The notes beneath the pieces were generated by a model, which saw only the letters and a program-made list of their open reading frames with translations, did not search any database and was not told where the DNA came from. This document shows, one piece after another, positions 1-64,000 of a DNA stretch of 64,000 nt; position 1 is the first letter of the stretch, and every line of letters begins with the position of its first letter. The stretch spans positions 270,563-334,562 of the forward strand of contig LBYD01000002.1 of assembly GCA_000995965.1 (NCBI GenBank), given 5' to 3'. Position numbers and translations under genes: made by a program. Source of the stretch: Candidatus Moranbacteria bacterium GW2011_GWC2_40_12. GTDB lineage: Bacteria > Patescibacteriota > Minisyncoccia > Moranbacterales > UBA11712.

Positions 1-3
1 TAT

Positions 4-74
4 CGGGCTGTCGTATACTGGCAGTACGCGTGCTTTGGGAGCACGTTGACTGGGTTCGATTCCCAGCAGCCCGA
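4..74 (+). tRNA. tRNA-Pro (anticodon UGG), cloverleaf read by eye; acceptor CGGGCTG/CAGCCCG, T-arm CTGGG-TTCGATT-CCCAG
   Basis: Manual fold: 7-bp acceptor, D-stem CGTA/TACG, anticodon stem CGTGC/GCACG with loop TTTGGGA, GGTTCGATTCC T-loop; no encoded CCA. Confidence 0.75.
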
Positions 75-115
75 AAAAAATTGAACCGGGTAGTATAGTG
101 TGGTAGTATGGTAGT

Positions 116-787
116 ATGAATAAAAGAAAAGAAAAAGCATTTTTATTAAGAAAAAAGGGATATTCCTATAATATGATCACGGATCGTTTAGGGATAAGTA
201 AAAGTACGCTAAGCTGTTGGTTCAAGGAAATTCCCTTTACTCCGAATAAATACGTAATCGGAAGAATTAAGAAGGGACCATTTAAATCAGGACAAATTAG
301 GCACAACCAGAGGGTTGCGGACATTGCAAAAATAAAAAAGCTTGCGAAAAATGAACTCGGTACAATTACAAAAAGGGATTTATGGATGCTTGGATTAGGA
401 TTATACATTGGAGAAGGATCAAAGGCTTATGAAACGGCGCAGATTATCAATTCAGATCCTGCCATTGTGAAGTTGGCGATCAAGTGGTTCAAGGATATTT
501 GCGGAATCGATAACGATCATATTACAATTGCAATGCATCTTTATCCAGATAATAATGAGAAAGAATGCAGAGATTATTGGAAAAAGATCACCGGTCTTTC
601 GAAAAAACAGTTTAGGAAAACGCAGATAGACCGAAGATTGGACAAATCCAGTAGCAAGAGGAGAAAATTACTTTATGGAACCGTTCTGTTATCCATAATC
701 AGCAATGGAGATTCTAATTTTGGAGTAAACCTTCATCGAAGGATAATGGGCTGGATTGAAAGTAGTTTAGTTCAGGCAAAAAAATAA
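116..787 (+). CDS. LAGLIDADG-like homing endonuclease-like protein with N-terminal HTH (single-motif type)
   Basis: Motif WMLGLGLYIGEGSK resembles LAGLIDADG (e.g. LAGFVDGDGS); N-terminal 'ITDRLGISKSTLSCWFKE' HTH-like; located exactly between two tRNA genes. Confidence 0.55.
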   Translation: MNKRKEKAFLLRKKGYSYNMITDRLGISKSTLSCWFKEIPFTPNKYVIGRIKKGPFKSGQIRHNQRVADIAKIKKLAKNELGTITKRDLWMLGLGLYIGEGSKAYETAQIINSDPAIVKLAIKWFKDICGIDNDHITIAMHLYPDNNEKECRDYWKKITGLSKKQFRKTQIDRRLDKSSSKRRKLLYGTVLLSIISNGDSNFGVNLHRRIMGWIESSLVQAKK

Positions 788-792
788 AATAT

Positions 793-864
793 GCGGGTAT
801 AGTATAATGGTTATTATGCGACTCTTCCAAAGTCGATATGCGGGTTCGATTCCCGCTACCCGCT
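793..864 (+). tRNA. tRNA-Gly (anticodon UCC)
   Basis: Acceptor GCGGGTA/TACCCGC, anticodon stem CGACT/AGTCG with loop CTTCCAA, T-arm GCGGG-TTCGATT-CCCGC. Confidence 0.8.
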
Positions 865-962
865 CACTTCTTCGCTCCTTGCGGAGCTTCGAAGCGCAAG
901 CACTGCAGATTTATTGAAAACAGTTATGGAATAAAGAAGGAAGAAGTGCCCTGCGTAGCTTT

Positions 963-1229
963 ATGCGAAGCATGGGCGATTATTGTATGTATTATGTTTA
1001 CGTTTTAAGAAGTATAAAATTCTTAAATCAAGTTTATACCGGCTCTACGGCAGATTTGAGAAAAAGGCTGAGGTCACACAACGAGGGATCAAACAAGCAC
1101 ACAAGTAAATTCAGACCTTGGAAAGTTGTTTGGTACGGTGCATTTTCAACAAGAGAAAAGGCTGAAAGATTTGAAAAATACTTGAAAACTGCTTCTGGGA
1201 TAGCTTTTAAGAGAAAAAGGCTTATTTGA
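963..1229 (+). CDS. GIY-YIG nuclease superfamily small protein (UPF0213/YhbQ-like); true start possibly at 987 (MYYVYVL)
   Basis: 'YYVYVLRS...YTGSTADLRKRLRSHN...WKVVWYGAFSTREKAERFEKYLK' matches GIY-YIG core. Confidence 0.7.
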   Translation: MRSMGDYCMYYVYVLRSIKFLNQVYTGSTADLRKRLRSHNEGSNKHTSKFRPWKVVWYGAFSTREKAERFEKYLKTASGIAFKRKRLI

Positions 1230-1325
1230 ATCCAAATTACAACTTTTTCTGTCTTCGTTAAAATTGGCTTGTTTGAGCCTTTTTTGTTTCTGGCGAATTT
1301 ATTTGTAACTTGTTAGAATTAACGC

Positions 1326-2273
1326 ATGGAACAAGTAGGTAAAAAAGATAAATTGCTCAAAAGTGAAATAACAGCAGCGGCCGTTTTTTTTCAATTGGGA
1401 ACAGTATTTTCTTATTCGCTTATCGGAAGAGGCAACATAAATTCTAATTATATACTTCTGACTAATAGCGGAAAATACTTGCTTAGGGCATATAAGTTCA
1501 AAACAGAAAAAGAGATTATCAGTGAGCTTGGGCTATTAAATTATTTATCTCGGAAGGGTTTTCCATGTCCAATCCCGGTTGGAAATATCTATAAAACTAA
1601 AAAGAAAAACATTTGTTGCTTCAAATATATTGAAGGACGAGAGTTGAAAAAGGTAACTGACAAAAAACTGAGGGAAATAGCAAATCTAATGGCTAATTTG
1701 CATATTTTGACCCGAAATTACCACTTGAAAAATAAGCGAGAAGGTGAAGGTCTGGCGGTTATAAAGCGTTATCTGAAAAATAAAAAAGGCGTCATCTTAA
1801 AAAGTAAATTCAGAAACAGTCAAAAATTTATTGACTTTCTTGAATCTGAAATAAAAAAGCTGCATTTTGACAGTAATTTACCAAGTGGCGCAATACATGT
1901 TGATGTGAAAGCGGAAAATGTTATTTTAGGAAAAGACGGTCGGTTGAGCTTTATTGATTTCGACAATTTTTATCTGGATTCTTTTATTACGGATATCGCC
2001 AACGCTATAATGTGGCTTTGTGTAAATAAGGATCAAAAAAAGCTGGATAGGCGAAAAGCAAAGATTTTTTTGACTGAATATGGAGCTATAAGAAAATTGA
2101 CCAAAAAAGAAATAGCGAATTTACATGAGAATTATAAATTCTACTGTCTGAAAGGAGCATTCAAGTATGCCTATATTTGTCTCCCGAGACTGAAATTTGC
2201 CGAACGCTGGGCATATTATTTCGTTGAACTATACAAAAATATTTCAAAACAAGATATTAGCTGTAAATTTTGA
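1326..2273 (+). CDS. Phosphotransferase-family kinase (APH/choline-kinase-like fold)
   Basis: 'IHVDVKAENVILGKDGRLSFIDFD' = catalytic H-x-D...N and DFD (DFG-like) motif of APH/ChoK-type kinases. Confidence 0.65.
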   Translation: MEQVGKKDKLLKSEITAAAVFFQLGTVFSYSLIGRGNINSNYILLTNSGKYLLRAYKFKTEKEIISELGLLNYLSRKGFPCPIPVGNIYKTKKKNICCFKYIEGRELKKVTDKKLREIANLMANLHILTRNYHLKNKREGEGLAVIKRYLKNKKGVILKSKFRNSQKFIDFLESEIKKLHFDSNLPSGAIHVDVKAENVILGKDGRLSFIDFDNFYLDSFITDIANAIMWLCVNKDQKKLDRRKAKIFLTEYGAIRKLTKKEIANLHENYKFYCLKGAFKYAYICLPRLKFAERWAYYFVELYKNISKQDISCKF

Positions 2274-2286
2274 AGGACGAATTACT

Positions 2287-3195
2287 ATGATTGAGTCAGA
2301 AAGAAAAAAAGAAAAAGAGCCGCATTTCAAAGTGCCGATAATTGATATTTTCCGTCATGGTGAAACCGAATATAAAGAACTGGCAGATCCGAATTTTATG
2401 TTGAATCCTGATGCTCCTGGATTTGCTCTGGATGCTGAACACCTGGATTTAACCGAAGAAGGGATTAGAAATATTCAAGAAGCCGCTGAACAATTGGCTT
2501 TAATAATTGATAAAGAAAAAGAAGCAGTTATTCTCGTAACCAGTCCGCAGCTTAGAGCGTTGTCTTCGATAATGATTATCGAGAAGGTTTTTGCCGAGCA
2601 TGGGATCATTATGCTTAATTCCACTTCTGAAAAAAGGAAGGGCATATCGAAAGGCATAAAAAATTCATCATTGGGGCTTGGACAAATATCCTTTAGGGAA
2701 GATCTAAAAAATGCGGGATTTGGAAAAATATGGCTGAAAGCACATAAACAATATGGAATTGAACATCCTGAAGCCAAAAACATACCACCAGCAGAAGTCC
2801 ATGGGTTAGTTGCCACCGCTCTCGGGAAGGAACTTCCAGATATTTTTTCAAAAAGCCATGACGAAATTGCTTCCGGATTCAAACGATTCTTGAGGCATCT
2901 CATAAATATTGAAATATATCTTCAGAATGGAACGAAGCAGCAATTAGCTGGTAGGCGGTTGCGGATAGTTTTGGTTACCCATGAAGAAAGAATAATGGAA
3001 TTTGCCCAACAATCCTTGGATTTAGAAAAAACGGTGGCTAAGGGTCAGCTTCTTGAAATTAATCCAAAAGGTATAATAAAAAAAGACCAGGAAGCTGAGG
3101 CAGATGTACGGCTTTTTGGCAAAAGGGGAGAGCTGGACTTGTCATCGAGGATAAAGATGAAATTTTCACAAGACGGTCTTTCCATTGGACACTAA
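2287..3195 (+). CDS. Histidine phosphatase (phosphoglycerate-mutase family) protein
   Basis: 'IIDIFRHGETEYKE' RHG catalytic motif near N-terminus; start chosen at ATG 2287 just after kinase stop. Confidence 0.65.
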   Translation: MIESERKKEKEPHFKVPIIDIFRHGETEYKELADPNFMLNPDAPGFALDAEHLDLTEEGIRNIQEAAEQLALIIDKEKEAVILVTSPQLRALSSIMIIEKVFAEHGIIMLNSTSEKRKGISKGIKNSSLGLGQISFREDLKNAGFGKIWLKAHKQYGIEHPEAKNIPPAEVHGLVATALGKELPDIFSKSHDEIASGFKRFLRHLINIEIYLQNGTKQQLAGRRLRIVLVTHEERIMEFAQQSLDLEKTVAKGQLLEINPKGIIKKDQEAEADVRLFGKRGELDLSSRIKMKFSQDGLSIGH

Positions 3196-3264
3196 ATCCT
3201 TGTTGAACGTTTTTTTCCCATAAATTCAGTTCTAATCGCGTGAAGTAGACAGCTAAAATTTTAC

Positions 3265-3293
3265 TTGAAATTAGTTTACTAATGTGCTATAAT
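3265..3293 (+). promoter_or_regulatory. sigma70-like promoter TTGAAA-17nt-TATAAT
   Basis: TTGAAA at 3265-3270, 17-nt spacer, TATAAT at 3288-3293, directly upstream of ORF 3301. Confidence 0.5.
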
Positions 3294-3300
3294 ATTAACA

Positions 3301-3969
3301 ATGGAACGGGTGAAGTCCCGTTCTTTTGCATTTTTAAATGAAATTAGAATAAAAACAGGCCTCAACAGCGTGAAAAAGGGGACAAATAAAAAGAAAAAAA
3401 TGACAAGCAAAAAAATATTGATAAAAAGGGTATCGACGCCTGAAGATTTTTTCTTTGGCTTTTTGGTGGCGGTTTCATTGGTATTCGTCCTTTTGTGTTT
3501 TCGGAGTGTCGCAGCTATTCCGGTTTCGTTGCCGCAGCTTACGCAGTCAAAGGGACCAAATGAAATGGAAAAAAATATTCGAAAAATGGCCAAAGGATAT
3601 CCGATTGAAGAAATGGCTCCTTTTATTGCCGGGAAAAACAAAAAAGTCGCGGCGTTTCTCGTGGCGATAGCCAAAAAAGAAAGCAACTGGGGAGTCCACT
3701 CTCCGAAAAAACAGGGAAAAAACTGTTTCAATTACTGGGGATATCGGGGTCCGGAAAATCCAACCGCGTCGGGATACAGCTGTTTTTCTTCACCGCGCCA
3801 GGCGGTCAATGTCGTCGGGAAAAGAATCAATAGTCTTGTTTCCCAAAAAGTGGACACTCCGCGCGAAATGGTCATGTGGAAATGCGGAGACGCGTGCACG
3901 CGAAGCGGCGCTCGGGGAGAGGCCAAGTGGGTGCGGGATGTTGGATTTTATTACGATAAAGTGCTATAA
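3301..3969 (+). CDS. Membrane-anchored peptidoglycan hydrolase, glucosaminidase (FlgJ-C-like) domain; start may be internal (MTSKK at 3400)
   Basis: N-terminal TM helix 'FFFGFLVAVSLVFVLLCF'; 'AIAKKESNWGVHS...NYWGYRG' resembles glucosaminidase domain motif (ESGWG...NLFGI). Confidence 0.45.
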   Translation: MERVKSRSFAFLNEIRIKTGLNSVKKGTNKKKKMTSKKILIKRVSTPEDFFFGFLVAVSLVFVLLCFRSVAAIPVSLPQLTQSKGPNEMEKNIRKMAKGYPIEEMAPFIAGKNKKVAAFLVAIAKKESNWGVHSPKKQGKNCFNYWGYRGPENPTASGYSCFSSPRQAVNVVGKRINSLVSQKVDTPREMVMWKCGDACTRSGARGEAKWVRDVGFYYDKVL

Positions 3970-17692: not shown

Positions 17693-18079
17693 TCAGGCCT
17701 TTTTTATTGAGAATATCTCGAGCGTTATGCTCCCGTCAACATGGAAAGTCACTTTTGGCGCAAGTTCAAATTCAATGCTTGTTATGAATTCTTTTGCACT
17801 TTCCCAGGCTTTTTGCAGTCGCCCTCTTTTTTTTGGGTCGAGTTTGAGGTTAAAGAATAGGAAATGACCGTAAAGCTTTGTTTGAACGGGCATTCCATTT
17901 TGATATATTAATACCCCCAGAGTAACCCCTTGTTTTTGCCGAAGTTTTTCAGCAGAAATGGCCATGTCTAGGAAATCTTCCCATGCCTCTGCTTCCAGAT
18001 GCTTTAGCTCCTTTTTACTCAAAACCTCTTTCAGTTCTTTAATTGCCTTATCTGTCGTAAGAAATTGACCCTCGGCCAT
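17693..18079 (-). CDS. Hypothetical soluble protein (128 aa), third gene of XRE/ImmA operon
   Basis: No TM, no known motif; 58-nt gap after ImmA-like gene, same strand. Confidence 0.45.
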   Translation of the reverse strand: MAEGQFLTTDKAIKELKEVLSKKELKHLEAEAWEDFLDMAISAEKLRQKQGVTLGVLIYQNGMPVQTKLYGHFLFFNLKLDPKKRGRLQKAWESAKEFITSIEFELAPKVTFHVDGSITLEIFSIKKA

Positions 18080-18137
18080 GACGAATCCCTCCTTGTTTAG
18101 CTTTTTTTGCTTCCAAAAAGTTAAATCTTAATAATTC

Positions 18138-18659
18138 TCATTCATTGCCTAACTTTAACTCTTTTGCTCTATAATAAATTGCATCACCCGAAACGCCAAA
18201 GAATTTTGCCAACCTTGCCCTCTTCCATATATCTCCATCGGTTATAGAATTCCACTTATCGCGAAACAGTATCTTGGGCATCAAAAAAGCCGCCGCGAAT
18301 CTTTCACAGAATCTTTCTTCGCCCCAGGCAGAATAAATATCCCCAGTTGAGAAACCATACTTTAATCCCGAGTTTCTGATTATATGCGCAATTTCATGAC
18401 ATAAGGTGAATCTTTGCCTATATTCCGGTTCCTTGGAATTTATCCAGATTTGGAAAATATTTCTCGCAGGATCGAAATACTCAAGTCCCGATGGTTTGAA
18501 TTCTTTTGAATCGGTATGAGAAATTTTCACTCTTATTCCAAGATTCTCTTCTGTCCATTTAATCAAGGAAAATTCTGAAGGCATTTCCTCTTTTATGCCG
18601 TCGTAAATCGCTTTGGCAATATCTTCTGCATTTAGATTTATTCCTTCATATGATTTCAT
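18138..18659 (-). CDS. ImmA/IrrE-family metallopeptidase (DUF955/COG2856-like), HEXXH 'HEIAH'
   Basis: 'FTLCHEIAHIIRN' zinc-metallopeptidase motif; overlaps upstream XRE gene by 4 nt (ATGA). Confidence 0.7.
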   Translation of the reverse strand: MKSYEGINLNAEDIAKAIYDGIKEEMPSEFSLIKWTEENLGIRVKISHTDSKEFKPSGLEYFDPARNIFQIWINSKEPEYRQRFTLCHEIAHIIRNSGLKYGFSTGDIYSAWGEERFCERFAAAFLMPKILFRDKWNSITDGDIWKRARLAKFFGVSGDAIYYRAKELKLGNE

Positions 18660-18985
18660 ACTCGCTTTCCGAAATTATCGATTAAATCTTCAATTAACTT
18701 CACATCAATCTCATTTTTAATTTTGTATTTTTTCCGCAAATACATTCTTAGAGGAGATGGCTCATTCTGCTCAATGACATTAAGATTATCAAGTATCTCT
18801 TTGACTTTAATACCTAATCCTTGAGCAAGTTTTATGATTGAATGCAGGGAAATATTTTTTTTGTCAAAATCTCCTTTCTCAATACGCGAAATGAAGGCCT
18901 TTGATAAGCTTGATCTTTCGGACAGTTCGTCGATCGTAAGAGATTTGTTATCCCTATATTTTTTAACAATATTACTTAGTTGCAT
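18656..18985 (-). CDS. XRE-family helix-turn-helix transcriptional regulator
   Basis: 'KSLTIDELSERSSLSKAFISRIEKGD' canonical Cro/C1 HTH; 109 aa. Confidence 0.75.
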   Translation of the reverse strand: MQLSNIVKKYRDNKSLTIDELSERSSLSKAFISRIEKGDFDKKNISLHSIIKLAQGLGIKVKEILDNLNVIEQNEPSPLRMYLRKKYKIKNEIDVKLIEDLIDNFGKRV

Positions 18986-18997
18986 AGAGTATAATTA

Positions 18998-19025
18998 AGT
19001 TTATCACAGTGAATATTTCTGTCAA
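18998..19025 (-). promoter_or_regulatory. Minus-strand promoter TTGACA-16-TAAACT with embedded palindrome TCACTGTGA (candidate XRE operator)
   Basis: Read on minus strand: TTGACAgaaatattCACTGTGAtaaact...ATG; perfect 9-bp palindrome in spacer. Confidence 0.45.
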
Positions 19026-60151: not shown

Positions 60152-60224
60152 GGGCGACCAGAGGGAATCGAACCCTCGTTCTTGGGACCACAACCCAATG
60201 TCCTGCCATTGAACGATGGCCGCC
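60152..60224 (-). tRNA. tRNA-His (anticodon GUG) with encoded G-1
   Basis: Minus-strand read GGCGGCCATCG...TTGGG-TTGTGGT-CCCAA...GAGGG-TTCGATT-CCCTC-TGGTCGCC; extra 5' G pairs with discriminator C. Confidence 0.75.
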
Positions 60225-60234
60225 ATGTTTTTTG

Positions 60235-60307
60235 TGCGCGCACCAGGGCTCGAACCTGGGACCGTTTGCTTAAGAGGCAACTGCTCTACCAGCTGAGCTA
60301 TGCGCGC
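60235..60307 (-). tRNA. tRNA-Lys (anticodon CUU)
   Basis: Minus-strand GCGCGCATAGCTCAGCTGGTAGAGCA-GTTGC-CTCTTAA-GCAAA...CCAGG-TTCGAGC-CCTGG-TGCGCGC-A. Confidence 0.75.
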
Positions 60308-60423
60308 AGATAAATATTGCCCAGTGTACTGAATAATTAGGTGTAAGGCAACAAAGACTTGTCTCCCGGGGAGGCCCGTCTCCAATGAATTTTCGGCGGG
60401 TAAAAATCTCACCTCCAGTTTTG

Positions 60424-60495
60424 TGTCCCCGCGAGGAATCGAACCTCGATCTAGAGCTTAGAAGGCTCCCGTTCTATCCGTTGAACTACAGGGAC
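60424..60495 (-). tRNA. tRNA-Arg (anticodon UCU)
   Basis: Minus-strand GTCCCTGTAGTTCAACGGATAGAACG-GGAGC-CTTCTAA-GCTCT...CGAGG-TTCGATT-CCTCG-CGGGGAC-A. Confidence 0.7.
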
Positions 60496-60559: not shown

Positions 60560-61861
60560 TCACAATCCATTGGCTTTTTTGTATTCTTTCCATTCTTTGC
60601 TTGACCAATCAGACGGTTTTTCAGTTATCTTTTCTTCTCCGGGATGGGGATATTTGGATGGCGAGTCGTAGCTCGATTTGAATTCCGATTTTCGGATGAG
60701 ATTTCCGTCCGCGCCATAGACTTCCTGATAGAGAACCGTTTTCATGGCGCCGCCTGCGCCGCGCGAAGTGATCGTCGGTCCTACAAGCTTTGTCTCACGC
60801 CCGTCTTTGGTTCCATAAAAATCAAATGTGAGCTGAGTCCCTTCGATATGGGTTTGGATGAGGATATATCCCGGCGTATCGTTTACGAAGCGAAGATCGG
60901 GATTGGGAATATATACCGTCGCGTCGGTTCCCTGCGGGGCGTAGTATTGCACCGGGTAGGCGTGGTTGGTGCGGGCGGTGATTTTGAGGCCGGCGTTGAG
61001 CGCCGCCCGAAAGCAAGTCGTTGAAACCTGGCACATTCCTCCGCCGTATTCGGGAATGGTTTTGTCCACCTTGATGACGAGTTCTGGAAGATATCCGGTT
61101 GACTTGTCGACAGGGCCGAGCGTTTTGATGAAAGAGAACTCCTCACCGGGTTTTATCAGCACGCCGTTGAATCGCTTCGCGCCGACTCCAATATTATGGA
61201 TCCGGTTCTTGGGCGAGCCGCGAAAATTGGAAATTCCTGTTGCGATGAGTTCCTTGATGCCGTATTGAGCGACGTCGGAACTTGAAACCTCTGGTTTCAT
61301 GATATTCGTTTCAATTTCGATATCTTTCGCGTAGGGATTTTTTTCGAGTTCCGAGCGGATTTTTTCGAGGCTCTTTTCAGGGTTGATTTCAAATCCGTTC
61401 TTGCTTACGGCAAAGGCGGAAACTTTTCCCTCCGAAAAAGTGAGTTTCGCGTTTTCGGGATTCACGCGAGTCTCATTTTGGGCGTTTTCGAGATATTTCT
61501 TGAGGCTAACCTCGTCAACGGAAAGCCTGGTTGATATTTTGGTGTGATAGCGGTCCCGGATCTGGGTCAGAAAGCGGAAATATATCGTGAGGCTCGGATG
61601 GCTGGACGGAGAAAAATTTATATTCTCGGCTTCGGAGTCGTAGCCCGAATTGATTTTGAGCGACGGGCGGATCCTTATCCAGCCAAGAAGACTGTTTTTT
61701 TCGACGGCGATCTTTTGTCCGCTGAAATGAAAGAAGAGCGGAGAGCCGATCACTTCCTGGACTTTGTCCACTGAAAAATCGCCGAGACTCAACTCTTCGG
61801 CCTGGGTAATCAGCGGAAAACTCAAAAATAAAATTGTAGCAAAAATAATTTTCTGCCTCAT
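60560..61861 (-). CDS. VanW-family protein with signal peptide (start at MRQKIIFATILFL rather than ORF start 61981)
   Basis: 'EYGGGMCQVSTTCFRAALNAGLKITARTNHAYPVQYY' VanW signature; N-terminal signal peptide from Met41 of ORF. Confidence 0.75.
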   Translation of the reverse strand: MRQKIIFATILFLSFPLITQAEELSLGDFSVDKVQEVIGSPLFFHFSGQKIAVEKNSLLGWIRIRPSLKINSGYDSEAENINFSPSSHPSLTIYFRFLTQIRDRYHTKISTRLSVDEVSLKKYLENAQNETRVNPENAKLTFSEGKVSAFAVSKNGFEINPEKSLEKIRSELEKNPYAKDIEIETNIMKPEVSSSDVAQYGIKELIATGISNFRGSPKNRIHNIGVGAKRFNGVLIKPGEEFSFIKTLGPVDKSTGYLPELVIKVDKTIPEYGGGMCQVSTTCFRAALNAGLKITARTNHAYPVQYYAPQGTDATVYIPNPDLRFVNDTPGYILIQTHIEGTQLTFDFYGTKDGRETKLVGPTITSRGAGGAMKTVLYQEVYGADGNLIRKSEFKSSYDSPSKYPHPGEEKITEKPSDWSSKEWKEYKKANGL

Positions 61862-62107
61862 TGTATTTAGAATACTTGAAAATGCATTATTATACAATAT
61901 TACAATATTTATTTTCGGAAATAAATACAATTTAGCATTTTCCCACGGCCGTATAATTTTGCTAATTTTGTGCGTTCTCAATAAAAAACAGGCCGGTCCG
62001 CGACGGAAACGTGTCCGTCGGGATCAGCCTGGGTATAATCCCTTCTAACATTTAATGTTAGGATAATATTATATCAATATTTTCGATATTCTTGCATAAG
62101 AAAACCC

Positions 62108-62140
62108 TGTCCCGAGGGAGGGGGACAGGGTGCTGAGGTT
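62108..62140 (-). terminator. Terminator for purC-like gene (ccctgtccc-cctccctc-gggacaggg + U-run on minus strand)
   Basis: 9-bp perfect stem; minus-strand T-run tttcttatgc. Confidence 0.6.
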
Positions 62141-62161
62141 ACTGTTTCAGTAAAGGTGCCG

Positions 62162-63328
62162 TTAGATTTGATGCTGATGCATTGCCAAACAGCAGCGCAG
62201 ATTACGGCGGCCGGTTTCCAGGACGTTGGCATTCGTCATGGTAACTGTCTTATCGGCGGCAATGTGATAATCGCCCTGGCCGGTCTCCTTTGACCGGAGC
62301 CGAAAGTTCTCTTTGCAGTCATATTCACGCATGCAAGCCAAGGCCAGCTCTTCCATGCCGCGGGCGCGGTATTTGTCTCCCAGCTCCGTCCAGAACGTCG
62401 GGCGCCAGCGGCTACTGTCCGTGGTGCCTTTTTCGTCGCCGAGGCGGACCACGCCTTTTTCCCGGTTGTAGCGGGCAAAGTCCATGAATGCCCGAGGGTT
62501 GAATTCCGGCCATTCCTGCCATTCGTTTCTCCGGCGGCCGATACTGGTCAGAGCCTTACCGAAAAAATAGTCTATGAATTCGTTGAAGTCATGAGGCACA
62601 TAGCCGACCGGGTTAATGGGCAGGCCTTCCGGAAACTGGAAAAATTCAAATTTGTCGTCCGGATGCTGGTAACCGCACCATTTGCCATGCCGGGCGATCT
62701 CGAGGTGCAGTTTCATGGAGATGCCGTAAATATAGTTGGCGACATCGGCGTCGCCGACCGTTTCCGCAAATTCCTTGAGCGTCAAGTTCTGATCCTTATG
62801 GCCTTTCGACGCCTTGGAAGTCGGAGTCAGCATGAGGCGGGGCAACTCGTCGCCGAGCCTCAGACCTTTGGGAATTTCCTGGCCGCAGATTTCGGTTTTT
62901 CCCACGCCAGATCCCTCTAGAGTGTCTCGGACAATGCATTCGACTTTGAATGGGCTTTCCGCCTGAAGATGCAGGGTGCTCCTCAAGAGAATTTCCGGCG
63001 GCAGGAGCCGCGTCAATTCTTTGTGCTCTCCTTCGAGGTCCAATGTAACCTGGTCAATGGGCACAAAGCCACCGACAATTTGGGTGAACAGCTTGTCCAG
63101 GGCCCGGATGATCATGCCTTTTCCCGGATAATGGGCCGGGACATTACCTTCCAAAAGATGCTTTTGGTCAAAGGCGCCGATGAGGTCCCGGACGACCATC
63201 AGTAAGAGGCTATAGAACTCAAAGATGGCTCTGACTTTACCGTCATAATACTTTTTGAGCCCCGGAATCTGGACATCGATCACCGGCGCGGCTGTCAAAG
63301 GGTTCATTCCACCAAAAAGTTTTAACAT
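62162..63328 (-). CDS. purC: Phosphoribosylaminoimidazole-succinocarboxamide (SAICAR) synthase, long form
   Basis: 'VVRLGDEKGTTDSSRWRPTFW' aligns with PurC 'VLGDEFSPDGSRLWD'; 'ECIVRDTLEGSG' with 'ECVVRNRAAGS'; adjacent to purE; GC-rich. Confidence 0.6.
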   Translation of the reverse strand: MLKLFGGMNPLTAAPVIDVQIPGLKKYYDGKVRAIFEFYSLLLMVVRDLIGAFDQKHLLEGNVPAHYPGKGMIIRALDKLFTQIVGGFVPIDQVTLDLEGEHKELTRLLPPEILLRSTLHLQAESPFKVECIVRDTLEGSGVGKTEICGQEIPKGLRLGDELPRLMLTPTSKASKGHKDQNLTLKEFAETVGDADVANYIYGISMKLHLEIARHGKWCGYQHPDDKFEFFQFPEGLPINPVGYVPHDFNEFIDYFFGKALTSIGRRRNEWQEWPEFNPRAFMDFARYNREKGVVRLGDEKGTTDSSRWRPTFWTELGDKYRARGMEELALACMREYDCKENFRLRSKETGQGDYHIAADKTVTMTNANVLETGRRNLRCCLAMHQHQI

Positions 63329-63384
63329 ACTCGTCTTCTCCTCTCCGTTATTAATTATTCCCCGGCTTTTGAGGGGGTTAGGGA

Positions 63385-63963
63385 TTATGCAGGCCAGCCG
63401 TGCTCGTCGGCTAATTTTAGAGCAGCTTTCTCCACGTCCTGGACCATGCCGATACGCTTGTTTTTCAGTTTCAGCTCAAAAAGCTTTTCCTTAATGGCTA
63501 AAATCTGGATGGCAGCAATAGCGGCATTTTTTGCTCCGTTAATGGCCATAGTCATAACGGGTACGCCGGGCGGCATCTGGACAGATGCCAGAAGAGCGTC
63601 CAGGCCTCCAAGCGTCGAGGAAGACGAAGCAAGCGGAACGGCGATGACTGGTAGCGTTGTATGGCTGGCGACAATGCCGGCCAAATGGGCGGCCATGCCA
63701 GCGGCGCAGATAAACACCTTGCAGCCGCGCTTTTCCCATTCTTTTACTGTATCTTCGACTCTCTTTGGTGTGCGATGGCCGGATGCAACAGTGCTGGCAA
63801 AGAGAACTTCATACTCTTCCAGCGTAGCCTTTGCCGGTTCAACCAGAGGTCGGTCGGAAATGCTGCCCATGATAATACCGGCCAAAATAGGATATTTTGG
63901 TGCCATAACATCCTCCATTTTCAGCCCGTTTGCACAGGCCGGGTTCAGGTTATTCCGCATCAT
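63385..63963 (-). CDS. purE: N5-carboxyaminoimidazole ribonucleotide mutase (true start probably internal, MAPKYPILAGIIMGS)
   Basis: 'AGIIMGSISD', 'SGHRTPKR', 'AGMAAHLAGIVASHTTLPVIAVP' canonical PurE motifs. Confidence 0.85.
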   Translation of the reverse strand: MMRNNLNPACANGLKMEDVMAPKYPILAGIIMGSISDRPLVEPAKATLEEYEVLFASTVASGHRTPKRVEDTVKEWEKRGCKVFICAAGMAAHLAGIVASHTTLPVIAVPLASSSSTLGGLDALLASVQMPPGVPVMTMAINGAKNAAIAAIQILAIKEKLFELKLKNKRIGMVQDVEKAALKLADEHGWPA

Positions 63964-64000
63964 GCGGCAATTTTGAAATGTAGAGTAATTTATCCGCTGC

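What the first reader, a model, noticed from the sequence alone, without database searches (positions are those of the whole stretch)
62050..64000. Abrupt GC-rich block encoding purC and purE at the right edge
GC rises from ~40-45% (VanW gene and upstream) to roughly 55-58% across the purC-like and purE genes (62162-63963), with different codon preference (CTG/GCC/GGC-rich). Isolated purC+purE without the rest of the de novo purine pathway in the window, in a compositionally foreign segment, suggests horizontal acquisition or a chimeric contig join near 62.0-62.15 kb.
Basis: seen in the sequence. Interest (0 to 1): 0.5.

Follow-up and report, generated by a model that had tools for sequence, protein, structure and literature searches.

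The report
Mosaic purine-synthesis operon in a Moranbacterium
The GC-rich block is real and is not an assembly error: it is most of a three-gene purine-synthesis operon (purB-purE-purC) in a tiny groundwater bacterium, and its purE and purC genes appear to have been swapped in from elsewhere, a known way for operons to evolve.

Summary
purC-like is 53.8% GC and purE 52.5%, against a window mean of 44.2%.

The block is the 3' two-thirds of a minus-strand operon, purB-purE-purC. It runs 1.6 kb past the window edge and ends in two tandem terminators. These three genes are the three GC-richest of 63 ORFs, and the operon is the top tetranucleotide and codon-usage outlier.

A chimeric join is excluded. 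Four independent assemblies are base-identical across the junction.

Horizontal replacement is supported. A syntenic relative (L007) carries TsaD-hyp-HSP20-lyase-AIRC-PurC-VanW. Its flanking genes are 65-73% identical to the window's, but its PurE is only 23% identical and its PurC gives no significant match. A closer relative (L092) shows PurB 82%, PurC 91% and VanW 84%, but PurE only 51%.

PurE is an ordinary class I N5-CAIR mutase. PurC belongs to a very rare ~386-aa SAICAR-synthetase subfamily with about 90 extra residues. That subfamily was found directly downstream of a lyase gene and purE in all seven contexts examined.

This is a new example of in-situ gene displacement, and of modest interest.

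The parts
62162..63328 (-). purC-like gene: 388-aa SAICAR-synthetase homologue of a rare ~386-aa subfamily. GC 0.538, GC3 0.658.
   Evidence: Family scores: Pfam PF01259 gives 63.9 bits (cut-off 20) over aa 27-232 only. The best NCBIfam PurC equivalog gives 95 bits against a cut-off of 251. Structure: AlphaFold2 pLDDT 90.6 and pTM 0.90. The top 38 Foldseek PDB hits are all SAICAR synthetases or PAICS, with target-normalised TM 0.75-0.80 to the yeast and Mycobacterium enzymes. Rarity: only 13 full-length relatives among 5.8e9 proteins, and 16 hits at E<=1e-30 among 1.84e9 representatives.
63338..63346 (-). Shine-Dalgarno-like GGAGAGGAG, 9 nt upstream of the purC ATG
   Evidence: Read directly from the sequence.
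63385..63906 (-). purE: 173-aa class I PurE (N5-CAIR mutase). The longest ORF would start at 63963, but the ATG at 63906 has a GGAGGA 4 nt upstream and is the start used in the NCBI record.
   Evidence: TIGR01162 gives 160.7 bits against a cut-off of 149.6; Pfam AIRC gives 176 bits. The best PDB sequence matches are all class I PurE: 3trh, 1o4v, 3ors, 1u11. It is 51-59% identical to ordinary bacterial PurE. The 173-aa call is in L002.
63911..63916 (-). GGAGGA ribosome-binding site of purE
   Evidence: Read directly from the sequence.
63950..64000 (-). 3' end of the purB-like lyase gene (538 aa). The gene continues 1,566 bp beyond the window edge.
   Evidence: L001-L004 extend the window with zero mismatches. 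Pfam Lyase_1 plus ASL_C. It belongs to a Patescibacteria-specific clade of 520-565-aa lyases and is only 27-29% identical to canonical PurB.
62094..62131 (-). Intrinsic terminator 1, directly after purC: 10-bp stem with 7 G-C pairs, then UUUUCUU
   Evidence: Terminator scan (L001 11198-11225, which is window 62104-62131) and RNA fold.
61981..62030 (-). Intrinsic terminator 2: long hairpin CAGGCUGAUCCCGACGGA...UCCGUCGCGGACCGGCCUG followed by UUUUUUAUU. It is conserved in the close relative L092.
   Evidence: RNA fold of 61970-62165: MFE -71.4 kcal/mol, z -7.2. The same element is present in the L092 intergenic sequence.
63397..63983 (-). Segment with no nucleotide homology to the close relative L092. 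It covers the last ~11 codons of purB, the spacer and nearly all of purE, and so marks the purE swap.
   Evidence: The blastn alignments end at 63984 and resume at 63396. Sliding identity is about 57% here, against about 76% in purB and about 91% in purC.
61862..62161 (.). AT-rich purC-VanW intergenic region (GC as low as 0.33). It makes the GC step look abrupt.
   Evidence: The VanW start at 61861 follows the JGI/NCBI gene calls.

Best explanation
**What it is.** The GC-rich block is a genuine chromosomal segment of a Candidatus Moranbacteria (Patescibacteria/CPR) genome. It is the distal two-thirds of a three-gene operon, purB-purE-purC, on the minus strand. The operon follows the terminator of the HSP20 gene upstream and ends in two tandem terminators before VanW.

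**What it does (inferred).** It encodes three consecutive steps of de novo purine synthesis:
1. PurE (class I): N5-CAIR to CAIR.
2. PurC: CAIR + Asp + ATP to SAICAR.
3. PurB: SAICAR to AICAR + fumarate. PurB also catalyses adenylosuccinate to AMP.

**How it evolved (inferred).** The operon is an evolutionary mosaic.
- The lyase is the resident CPR-type PurB, in a conserved TsaD-hyp-HSP20-purB locus.
- The purE-purC pair downstream was replaced in situ. A divergent CPR-type AIRC/PurC pair gave way to a canonical class I purE and a rare 386-aa-type purC.
- purE was then exchanged a second time between close relatives.
- purC was shared between those relatives more recently than its flanking genes.

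**Where the GC excess comes from.** Part is amino-acid composition: all of it for purE and about a third for purC. The rest is a strong preference for C-ending codons in purC and purB.

**Shown versus inferred.**
- Shown: gene identities, synteny, discordant identity levels, composition statistics, fold.
- Inferred: direction of replacement, enzymatic activities, cause of the codon bias.
For: **1. Real, not chimeric.** There are zero mismatches to four independent assemblies across the junction. The protein occurs on 20 contigs up to 482 kb, in MAGs from three studies.

**2. Operon anatomy.** The lyase stop lies 43 nt before the purE start, and there are 56 nt between purE and purC. Both genes have ribosome-binding sites. 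Two terminators follow purC.

**3. Synteny with discordance.** L007/L014 carry TsaD-hyp-HSP20-lyase-AIRC-PurC-VanW. Identity to the window is TsaD 66%, HSP20 73%, VanW 65% and lyase 54%. PurE is only 23%, and PurC gives no hit at E<=1e-3.

**4. Window PurE is closer to unrelated bacteria.** It is 51-59% identical to PurE of Desulfovibrio, Ruminococcus and Bacteroidales. It passes TIGR01162, whereas the L007, L034 and L010 AIRC proteins score only 46-61 bits.

**5. Three histories in three adjacent genes.** Comparison with the close relative L092:

| Gene | aa identity | identical codons at conserved residues |
|---|---|---|
| PurB | 82% | 52% |
| PurE | 51% | 30% |
| PurC | 91% | 81% |
| VanW | 84% | 62% |

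**6. Polarity.**
- The CPR-type lyase is paired with divergent AIRC/PurC proteins in distant CPR lineages (L034, and Berkelbacteria L010).
- It has variable or no purE/purC partners in other loci.
- The 386-aa PurC type otherwise travels with a canonical-type PurB (TIGR00928, 272-379 bits).

**7. Function.**
- The PurC model is a SAICAR-synthetase fold.
- Residues matching the E. coli ligand-binding positions are invariant in the family (K31, R134, S140, D224, K226, E228, D298, R307, K339, R343). The correspondence to E. coli R94, S100, D175, K177, E179, D191, R199, K211 and R215 is by my inspection.
- All seven contexts examined place the gene right after lyase-purE. L093 reads purM-purH-purB-purE-purC386-pyrF.

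**8. Composition.**
Against: - No mobility gene, tRNA or direct repeat directly flanks the operon. The nearest recombinases are 2.9 kb beyond purB, on the far side of the core gene TsaD.
- The GC-independent dinucleotide signature is not anomalous.
- purB, inferred to be resident, carries the same GC3 excess as purC (+0.054 vs +0.064). The clearly replaced purE shows no codon-choice excess. Composition and phylogeny therefore do not map onto each other gene by gene.
- Known relatives of the 386-aa purC sit in loci of 39-44% GC, with GC3 of 0.43-0.53. The high GC3 was therefore not obviously inherited from such a donor.
- pur genes are also somewhat GC-richer than their flanks in L007, L010, L093 and L094.
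- No donor has been identified.
- The trees are NJ or identity-based only, and the PurE tree is poorly resolved.
- The direction of replacement (window lineage versus L007 lineage) rests on parsimony.
Confidence: 0.7

Rival explanations
1. Whole-operon transfer. purB, purE and purC entered together, already assembled as a hybrid, from a GC-richer Patescibacteria donor. They replaced the resident purBEC between HSP20 and VanW by homologous recombination.
For: - The compositional anomaly covers exactly the three genes, with sharp edges at the operon ends.
- purB and purC share the same C-ending codon bias.
- PurB identity to the syntenic L007 (54%) is hardly above its identity to non-syntenic or distant CPR (47-56%). 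TsaD, HSP20 and VanW are 65-73% identical. At the greater L008 distance PurB (50%) is no more diverged than TsaD (44%), so about 65-70% would be expected for L007.
- Hybrids of a CPR-type lyase with a canonical purE exist elsewhere (L021, L029-L032).
Against: - L007 is still the nearest PurB outside the 82-88% clade, and the four-taxon pattern agrees with TsaD.
- Between the window and L092, purB and VanW show similar synonymous divergence (52% vs 62% identical codons). purC (81%) and purE (30%) differ from both, so the three genes did not move as one unit recently.
- No candidate donor has a closer PurB.
Confidence: 0.15
2. No transfer at all. The block is vertically inherited, and its GC-richness is intrinsic: Gly/Ala/Arg/Pro-rich enzymes plus translational selection, or GC-biased gene conversion, on a well-expressed operon.
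For: - The GC excess of purE is explained by its amino-acid composition, as is about a third of purC's (expected GC 0.476 vs a mean of 0.439).
- pur genes exceed their flanks in GC in L007, L010, L093 and L094.
- Housekeeping genes in the window (rpoB/C, GroEL, FtsK) are also above average at 0.48-0.49.
- The dinucleotide signature is normal.
- There are no flanking mobility signatures.
Against: - This cannot explain PurE at 23% and PurC with no detectable match to the genes in the same slot of a relative whose flanks are 65-73% identical.
- It cannot explain PurE at 51% between flanks of 82-91% in L092, with synonymous sites saturated in purE only.
- Codon-choice excess in purC and purB (+0.064, +0.054) exceeds every other gene, including rpoB/C and GroEL (maximum +0.032).
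Confidence: 0.12
3. Assembly artefact. A chimeric contig joins a ~44% GC genome to a fragment of a ~53% GC genome near 62.0-62.15 kb.
For: Only the abrupt GC step next to an AT-rich intergenic region.
Against: - Independent JGI, NCBI, ENA and Logan assemblies have an identical junction.
- 44 collection blocks and 20 contigs up to 482 kb carry the same gene.
- The same purC-VanW adjacency occurs in L092 at 81-91% nucleotide identity and in L007.
- GC returns to 42-48% in HSP20, the hypothetical gene and TsaD beyond purB.
Confidence: 0.01

Closest known systems
Mosaic operons formed by in-situ xenologous gene displacement (Omelchenko et al. 2003, Genome Biology, cited from my own knowledge; the concept is also used in PMC9425974)
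   Same: A gene inside a conserved operon or locus is replaced by a distant homologue of the same function, while gene order and neighbours stay the same. Here purE and purC sit between a conserved purB and VanW.
   Different: Two or three separate replacement or recombination events are packed into 1.8 kb. One of them, the purE swap, separates genomes whose flanking genes are still 82-91% identical. No donor is identified.
Long-form SAICAR synthetase (PurC; yeast Ade1 1a48/2cnq, Mycobacterium abscessus 6yvq/3r9r)
   Same: Same fold: Foldseek E 2e-16, target-normalised TM 0.75-0.80. The N-terminal 245 residues align by profile at E 3e-25. The GKVR, VE.IVR..EGS, D.KFEF, DE..T.DSSR and K(D/E).FR motifs are conserved. 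The gene neighbours purE and purB.
   Different: It is about 90 residues longer, mainly from an insertion of about 62 aa between the KFEF strand and the DE...SSR motif, plus about 20 aa after that motif (by my inspection). Only 19-21% identical. Below every NCBIfam PurC cut-off. The subfamily is extremely rare.
Class I PurE, N5-carboxyaminoimidazole ribonucleotide mutase (E. coli 1qcz, A. aceti 1u11, T. maritima 1o4v, C. burnetii 3trh)
   Same: Passes TIGR01162. All the best PDB matches are class I enzymes. The SxHRTP and AAGxAAHLAG loops are present.
   Different: The first loop reads SGHRTP rather than SAHRTP. No purK, the usual partner that makes N5-CAIR, lies within the 73 kb examined.
Genomic island acquired by integration
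   Same: A compositional outlier of a few kb carrying accessory metabolic genes. Recombinase genes and a tRNA cluster lie within a few kb.
   Different: No flanking repeats. The recombinases are separated from the block by the core genes TsaD and HSP20, and the tRNAs by VanW. The slot is occupied by homologous genes in relatives, so this is replacement, not insertion.

Membership tests
SAICAR synthetase (PurC) | Matches the Pfam SAICAR_synt domain above the gathering score | tested here: met
   PF01259 gives 63.9 bits against a cut-off of 20, but over aa 27-232 only.
SAICAR synthetase (PurC) | Reaches the curated equivalog score of an NCBIfam PurC model | tested here: not met
   The best is NF010568 at 95.2 bits against a cut-off of 251. 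TIGR00081 gives 37.8 against 189.9.
SAICAR synthetase (PurC) | SAICAR-synthetase three-dimensional fold | tested here: met
   AlphaFold2 pLDDT 90.6. The top 38 PDB matches are all PurC or PAICS, with target-normalised TM 0.75-0.80.
SAICAR synthetase (PurC) | Conserved ATP/Mg/CAIR-binding residues (E. coli K11/K13, R94, S100, D175, K177, E179, D191, R199, K211, R215) | tested here: inconclusive
   Counterparts K31, R134, S140, D224, K226, E228, D298, R307, K339 and R343 are invariant across 12 family members. The correspondence was made by motif inspection and my recollection of the E. coli structure, not by structural superposition.
SAICAR synthetase (PurC) | Genomic association with other purine-pathway genes | tested here: met
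   The gene lies directly downstream of lyase-purE in 7 of 7 contexts. L093 reads purM-purH-purB-purE-purC-pyrF.
SAICAR synthetase (PurC) | Catalyses CAIR + Asp + ATP to SAICAR | not testable with these tools
   Needs an enzyme assay or genetic complementation.
Class I PurE (N5-CAIR mutase) | Reaches the TIGR01162 equivalog score | tested here: met
   160.7 bits against a cut-off of 149.6. LarB scores only 43 bits.
Class I PurE (N5-CAIR mutase) | Class I rather than class II loop signatures (SAHRTP and AAHLPG-type loops) | tested here: met
   SGHRTP and AAGMAAHLAG are present and align to the class I enzyme 3trh. All PDB hits at E<=1e-10 are class I type. The class definitions come from my own knowledge.
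Class I PurE (N5-CAIR mutase) | A PurK partner encoded in the genome | not tested
   None within the window or the 9.3 kb beyond it. The whole genome could not be searched, because it is not among the GTDB species representatives.
Adenylosuccinate lyase (PurB), the gene at the window edge | Reaches a curated PurB equivalog score | tested here: not met
   PRK09285 gives 159 bits against a cut-off of 446, and TIGR00928 gives 89.8 against 326. It belongs to a separate CPR clade that is 27-29% identical to canonical PurB.
Horizontally acquired or xenologously displaced gene | Compositional deviation from the host genome | tested here: met
   Top outlier in GC, tetranucleotide and codon usage. The dinucleotide signature is not deviant, and the purE excess is due to amino-acid composition.
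Horizontally acquired or xenologously displaced gene | Phylogenetic discordance with flanking or core genes in a conserved locus | tested here: met
   Against L007: flanks 65-73%, PurE 23%, PurC no hit. Against L092: flanks 82-91%, PurE 51%. These are identity-based comparisons and NJ trees only.
Horizontally acquired or xenologously displaced gene | Identified donor lineage | tested here: not met
   The nearest non-clade PurE (58-59%) sits in an ordinary bacterial purE-purC-purM operon. The nearest non-clade PurC is 37-41% identical and of unknown taxonomy.
Integrative genomic island | Flanking direct repeats or att sites, with an adjacent integrase or tRNA | tested here: not met
   No flanking repeats. 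The recombinases lie beyond TsaD, and the tRNAs beyond VanW.
Chimeric contig | Junction not reproduced in independent assemblies | tested here: not met
   The junction is identical in four assemblies and conserved in relatives.

The most novel reading that the evidence does not exclude
The ~386-aa PurC-like proteins are more than diverged SAICAR synthetases. They may be a functionally distinct subfamily whose ~90-residue insertion changes regulation, oligomerisation, partner binding (for example channelling with PurE or PurB) or substrate choice. Separately, the purE-purC slot downstream of the CPR-type purB may be a recombination hot spot through which ultra-small bacteria repeatedly exchange alternative versions of the AIR-to-SAICAR steps.
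Probability: 0.15. Interest if true: 0.5.

Novelty: new variant of a known kind. Interest (0 to 1): 0.3.

Why it matters
**For the scan.** A compositional step at a contig edge is explained here as a real biological feature and not a mis-assembly. The case also shows that GC alone mis-assigns which genes are foreign.

**For Patescibacteria biology.** It documents that the AIR-to-AICAR segment of purine synthesis is evolutionarily fluid in these reduced genomes. Downstream of one conserved, lineage-specific adenylosuccinate-lyase type, different lineages carry any of the following:
- divergent AIRC/PurC pairs
- canonical pairs
- PurC alone
- nothing

Swaps have occurred even between close relatives. 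This bears on automated calls of pathway completeness in CPR, where about a third of MAGs were reported to have complete de novo purine synthesis (PMC11608272). The divergent proteins fall below curated family thresholds and can therefore be missed or mis-scored.

**The rare 386-aa PurC subfamily** is a tractable target for biochemistry, but nothing here suggests a new kind of chemistry.

Tried and rejected
**Searches that found nothing.**
- Scan of 185,579 GTDB species-representative genomes with the PurC-388 family profile: no relative found, so no taxonomy for other family members. The window genome is not in that set either.
- Scan of IMG/VR viral contigs for the family: none found, so there is no evidence for a phage-borne auxiliary gene.
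- Rfam scan of 59.9-64.0 kb: only the three tRNAs, and no purine riboswitch or other known RNA near the operon.

**Ideas rejected.**
- Direct or inverted repeats flanking the operon as att-like sites. Only short chance-level matches appeared. The best is a 38-nt 74% match between the 5' end of HSP20 and the 3' end of purE.
- LarB (nickel-pincer cofactor) identity for the PurE homologue: 43 bits against a cut-off of 175.
- Class II PurE identity, on motifs and PDB matches.

**Analyses that were uninformative or inconclusive.**
- Donor inference from GC. Other members of the PurC-386 family lie in 39-44% GC loci, so the high GC3 cannot be attributed to them.
- The NJ tree of PurE has too little resolution to place the L092 or window PurE relative to particular bacterial groups.
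- A MAFFT alignment of PurC388 with canonical PurCs misplaced the C-terminal motifs, so the insertion boundaries were set by eye.
- Literature searches on Moranbacteria purine metabolism returned nothing specific.
Full report
**1. Observation**

The window averages 44.2% GC. Its last two 1-kb windows are the highest of 64, at 53.4% and 51.1%. At 300-nt resolution GC falls to 32.7% in the intergenic stretch 61800-62099. It then rises to 55.7-59.3% at 62100-62599 and stays mostly at 50-56% to the edge, with a dip to 47-48% around 63200-63599.

Two minus-strand ORFs fill the block:
- 62162-63328, 388 aa, a Pfam SAICAR_synt match.
- 63385-63963, a Pfam AIRC match and a TIGR01162 PurE match.

The stated CTG/GCC/GGC preference is correct: CTG 0.31 vs 0.18, GCC 0.46 vs 0.35, GGC 0.57 vs 0.27. 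There is also a general preference for C-ending codons, for example GTC 0.50 vs 0.28 and AAC 0.69 vs 0.39.

**2. The block continues beyond the window**

An exact-sequence look-up of the PurC-like protein found it in 44 blocks of the public collection. Four loci were retrieved: JGI 3300025121 (a 139-kb contig), NCBI GCA_001784895.1, Logan SRR6488211 and ENA ANAN16. All four match the window with zero mismatches over the whole overlap, including 61.9-62.2 kb.

They show that a 538-aa Lyase_1/ASL_C gene (purB-like) lies immediately upstream of purE, with its last 51 bases inside the window. Further upstream come HSP20, a hypothetical gene, TsaD, a serine recombinase and a tyrosine integrase.

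NCBI names the source Candidatus Moranbacteria. The identical protein is deposited from GW2011, RIFCSP and TPA MAGs, on 20 contigs up to 482 kb. The chimeric-join reading is therefore rejected.

**3. How unusual the composition is**

The analysis used 63 ORFs of the window plus the 9.3-kb extension.
- purC, purE and purB are the three GC-richest genes (0.538, 0.523-0.525, 0.512). The maximum elsewhere is 0.489, for rpoC.
- GC3 is 0.658 for purC and 0.627 for purB, against 0.452 +/- 0.067 elsewhere (maximum 0.542).
- The operon ranks first in synonymous-codon divergence among all ~3-kb gene runs (KL 0.087). The next is 0.078, for a low-GC region at 116-3969.
- It also ranks first of 140 sliding windows in tetranucleotide distance (z about 3.9) and in GC (z about 2.9).
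- The dinucleotide relative-abundance signature, which is independent of GC, is unremarkable (z about 1.2).

I then separated amino-acid composition from codon choice.
- purC would be 0.476 GC under the window's average codon usage, against a gene mean of 0.439. It gains a further 0.064 from codon choice.
- purB gains 0.054 from codon choice.
- No other gene exceeds 0.032.
- purE's excess is essentially all amino-acid composition.

**4. What the genes are**

*PurE.* It starts most plausibly at 63906, where a GGAGGA lies 4 nt upstream; this is also the NCBI call. It is an ordinary class I PurE:
- It passes TIGR01162.
- It carries the SGHRTP and AAGMAAHLAG loops.
- Its best PDB matches are class I mutases.
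- It is 51-59% identical to PurE of Desulfovibrio, Ruminococcus, Bacteroidales and others.

*PurC-like.* This protein is unusual.
- It scores far below every NCBIfam PurC cut-off (95 vs 251).
- It has only 13 full-length relatives among 5.8 billion clustered proteins: one at 86% identity, and the rest at 37-41%.
- An exhaustive profile search of 1.84 billion representatives found 16 hits at E<=1e-30, of which only four are full-length 50% clusters. Canonical PurCs follow at 120 bits or less and align only over the first ~240 positions.
- Its AlphaFold2 model is confident (pLDDT 90.6, pTM 0.90). It matches only SAICAR synthetases and PAICS in the PDB, with target-normalised TM 0.75-0.80 to the yeast and Mycobacterium long forms.
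- The family alignment shows invariant residues at the positions I equate with the E. coli ATP/Mg/CAIR ligands.
- The extra length is chiefly an insertion of ~62 residues between the KFEF strand and the DE..T.DSSR motif, plus ~20 residues after that motif (by inspection).

*Context.* In all seven genomic contexts I could see, the gene directly follows a Lyase_1 gene and an AIRC gene. In L093 the order is purM-purH-purB-purE-purC386-pyrF. SAICAR-synthetase function is therefore the best-supported inference, although it is untested.

*Termination and RNA elements.* Two strong hairpins, each followed by a U-run, terminate the operon. The second is conserved in L092. No known RNA family lies in the region apart from three tRNAs.

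**5. Evolutionary history**

*The lyase.* It belongs to a large Patescibacteria-specific clade of 520-565-aa proteins, found in Doudna-, Falkow-, Gribaldo- and Berkelbacteria among others. Members are 41-55% identical to the window protein, whereas canonical PurB is 27-29% identical.

*The syntenic relative L007.* One member, L007 (the same contig as L014), lies in a locus with the same gene order as the window: TsaD-hyp-HSP20-lyase-AIRC-PurC-VanW. Identities to the window:

| Gene | aa identity to window |
|---|---|
| TsaD | 66% |
| HSP20 | 73% |
| VanW | 65% |
| lyase (PurB) | 54% |
| AIRC (PurE slot) | 23% |
| PurC (330 aa) | no hit at E<=1e-3 |

The L007-type AIRC is itself highly divergent, at 46 bits on TIGR01162. 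So the same slot in two related genomes holds non-orthologous purE-purC pairs.

*Variation across the CPR lyase family.* Across 35 further loci of the family, the downstream partners vary:
- divergent AIRC + PurC (L034, and Berkelbacteria L010, where purL-purQ lie upstream)
- canonical PurE + canonical PurC (L021, L029-L032, L038)
- PurC alone (L017, L027, L035)
- nothing (many loci, often with TsaD upstream)

*Polarity.* The 386-aa PurC type elsewhere accompanies a canonical-type PurB (TIGR00928, 272-379 bits). Parsimony therefore favours replacement in the window lineage, with the resident lyase retained.

*The close relative L092.* This gives the sharpest evidence:

| Gene | aa identity | identical codons at conserved residues |
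|---|---|---|
| PurB | 82% | 52% |
| PurE | 51% | 30% (saturated) |
| PurC | 91% | 81% |
| VanW | 84% | 62% |

Nucleotide homology breaks at about 63984 and resumes at about 63396. purE was therefore exchanged again between close relatives, and purC shares a more recent ancestor than its flanks do. Codon bias cannot explain the low synonymous divergence of purC, because purB is equally biased and yet diverged.

*Window PurE affinities.* It groups with P0136/P0137 (80-85% identical; 100% bootstrap). It does not group with L092's PurE, nor with the PurEs that accompany other 386-aa PurCs (weak NJ tree). Its next nearest relative (59%) sits in an ordinary bacterial mutL/purE-purC(235 aa)-purM locus.

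**6. What remains unexplained**

- *The GC3 excess of purB.* Either the whole operon came from a GC-richer CPR donor, or a local process raised C-ending codons in purB and purC. The first option has some support: PurB identity to L007 is lower than expected from the flanks. The local process could be translational selection or GC-biased conversion at a recombination-prone site. I could not discriminate between these. Known relatives of the 386-aa purC lie in 39-44% GC loci, so they do not account for the bias.
- *Mobility signatures.* No repeat or mobility gene directly flanks the operon.
- *The rest of the pathway.* Whether the genome encodes it, including purK, could not be tested, because the genome is not among the searchable species representatives. 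One study reported complete de novo purine synthesis in about 32% of CPR MAGs (PMC11608272). A scattered pathway is therefore plausible.

**7. Verdict**

The chimera reading is rejected. The horizontal-acquisition reading is supported in a refined form: in-situ xenologous displacement and recombination within a resident purB-purE-purC operon.

This is a known evolutionary mechanism. The enzymes are known kinds, and one of them (PurC) is a rare structural variant. Interest is modest.

Noticed in passing
L007:7642-9204, L034:3168-4654, L010:7684-9129: Several Patescibacteria carry a highly divergent AIRC protein downstream of the CPR-type lyase. It scores only 46-61 bits on TIGR01162 against a cut-off of 149.6, and L034 has SCHWH where class I PurE has SAHRTP. 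An equally divergent PurC of 284-330 aa follows it. Whether these still perform the PurE and PurC reactions is open.
   Followed up: partly
beyond the window edge (L001:7763-9379), and L008, L015-L036: A Patescibacteria-specific clade of 520-565-aa adenylosuccinate-lyase-like proteins has more than 100 members and is only 27-29% identical to canonical PurB. The gene often stands alone, and several loci have TsaD just upstream.
   Followed up: partly
L031:4323-4960 and L038:943-1580: Downstream of the CPR lyase there is a 111-aa PurE fragment overlapping a 115-aa C-terminal PurC fragment. L030 has the intact 171-aa PurE. This looks like a deletion that fused and inactivated purE-purC, that is, decay of the same slot.
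   Followed up: no
L017:6616-8115: A 499-aa ORF begins as a PurC directly after the CPR lyase. It is about 200 aa longer than usual and may be a fusion.
   Followed up: no
L001:1-4900 (4.4-9.3 kb beyond the right edge of the window): A serine recombinase (511 aa), a tyrosine integrase and several small low-GC genes (GC 0.34-0.38) lie just past TsaD. This looks like a mobile element separate from the pur operon. The resolvase ORF is intact in the DNA of all assemblies, but it is not called in the gene tables of two of them.
   Followed up: partly
window 1-3969: A low-GC segment (0.36-0.38) lies directly after tRNA-Pro and tRNA-Gly. It encodes an APH-family phosphotransferase and hypothetical proteins. 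It is the strongest dinucleotide-signature outlier of the window and the second strongest in codon usage, so it is a better classical island candidate than the pur block.
   Followed up: no
window 60152-60495: A cluster of tRNA-His(gtg), tRNA-Lys(ctt) and tRNA-Arg(tct) on the minus strand, between the B12-binding radical-SAM/DUF4070 gene and VanW.
   Followed up: no
window 61981-62131: Two tandem intrinsic terminators follow purC. The distal long hairpin is conserved in L092, while the proximal one is not.
   Followed up: partly
window 18001-19000: A low-GC pocket (0.35) with negative GC skew that holds small minus-strand ORFs of 109-173 aa.
   Followed up: no
L001:6914-6951 and L001:9906-9943: A 38-nt imperfect direct repeat (74% identity) lies between the 5' end of HSP20 and the 3' end of purE. 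It is probably a chance match.
   Followed up: no
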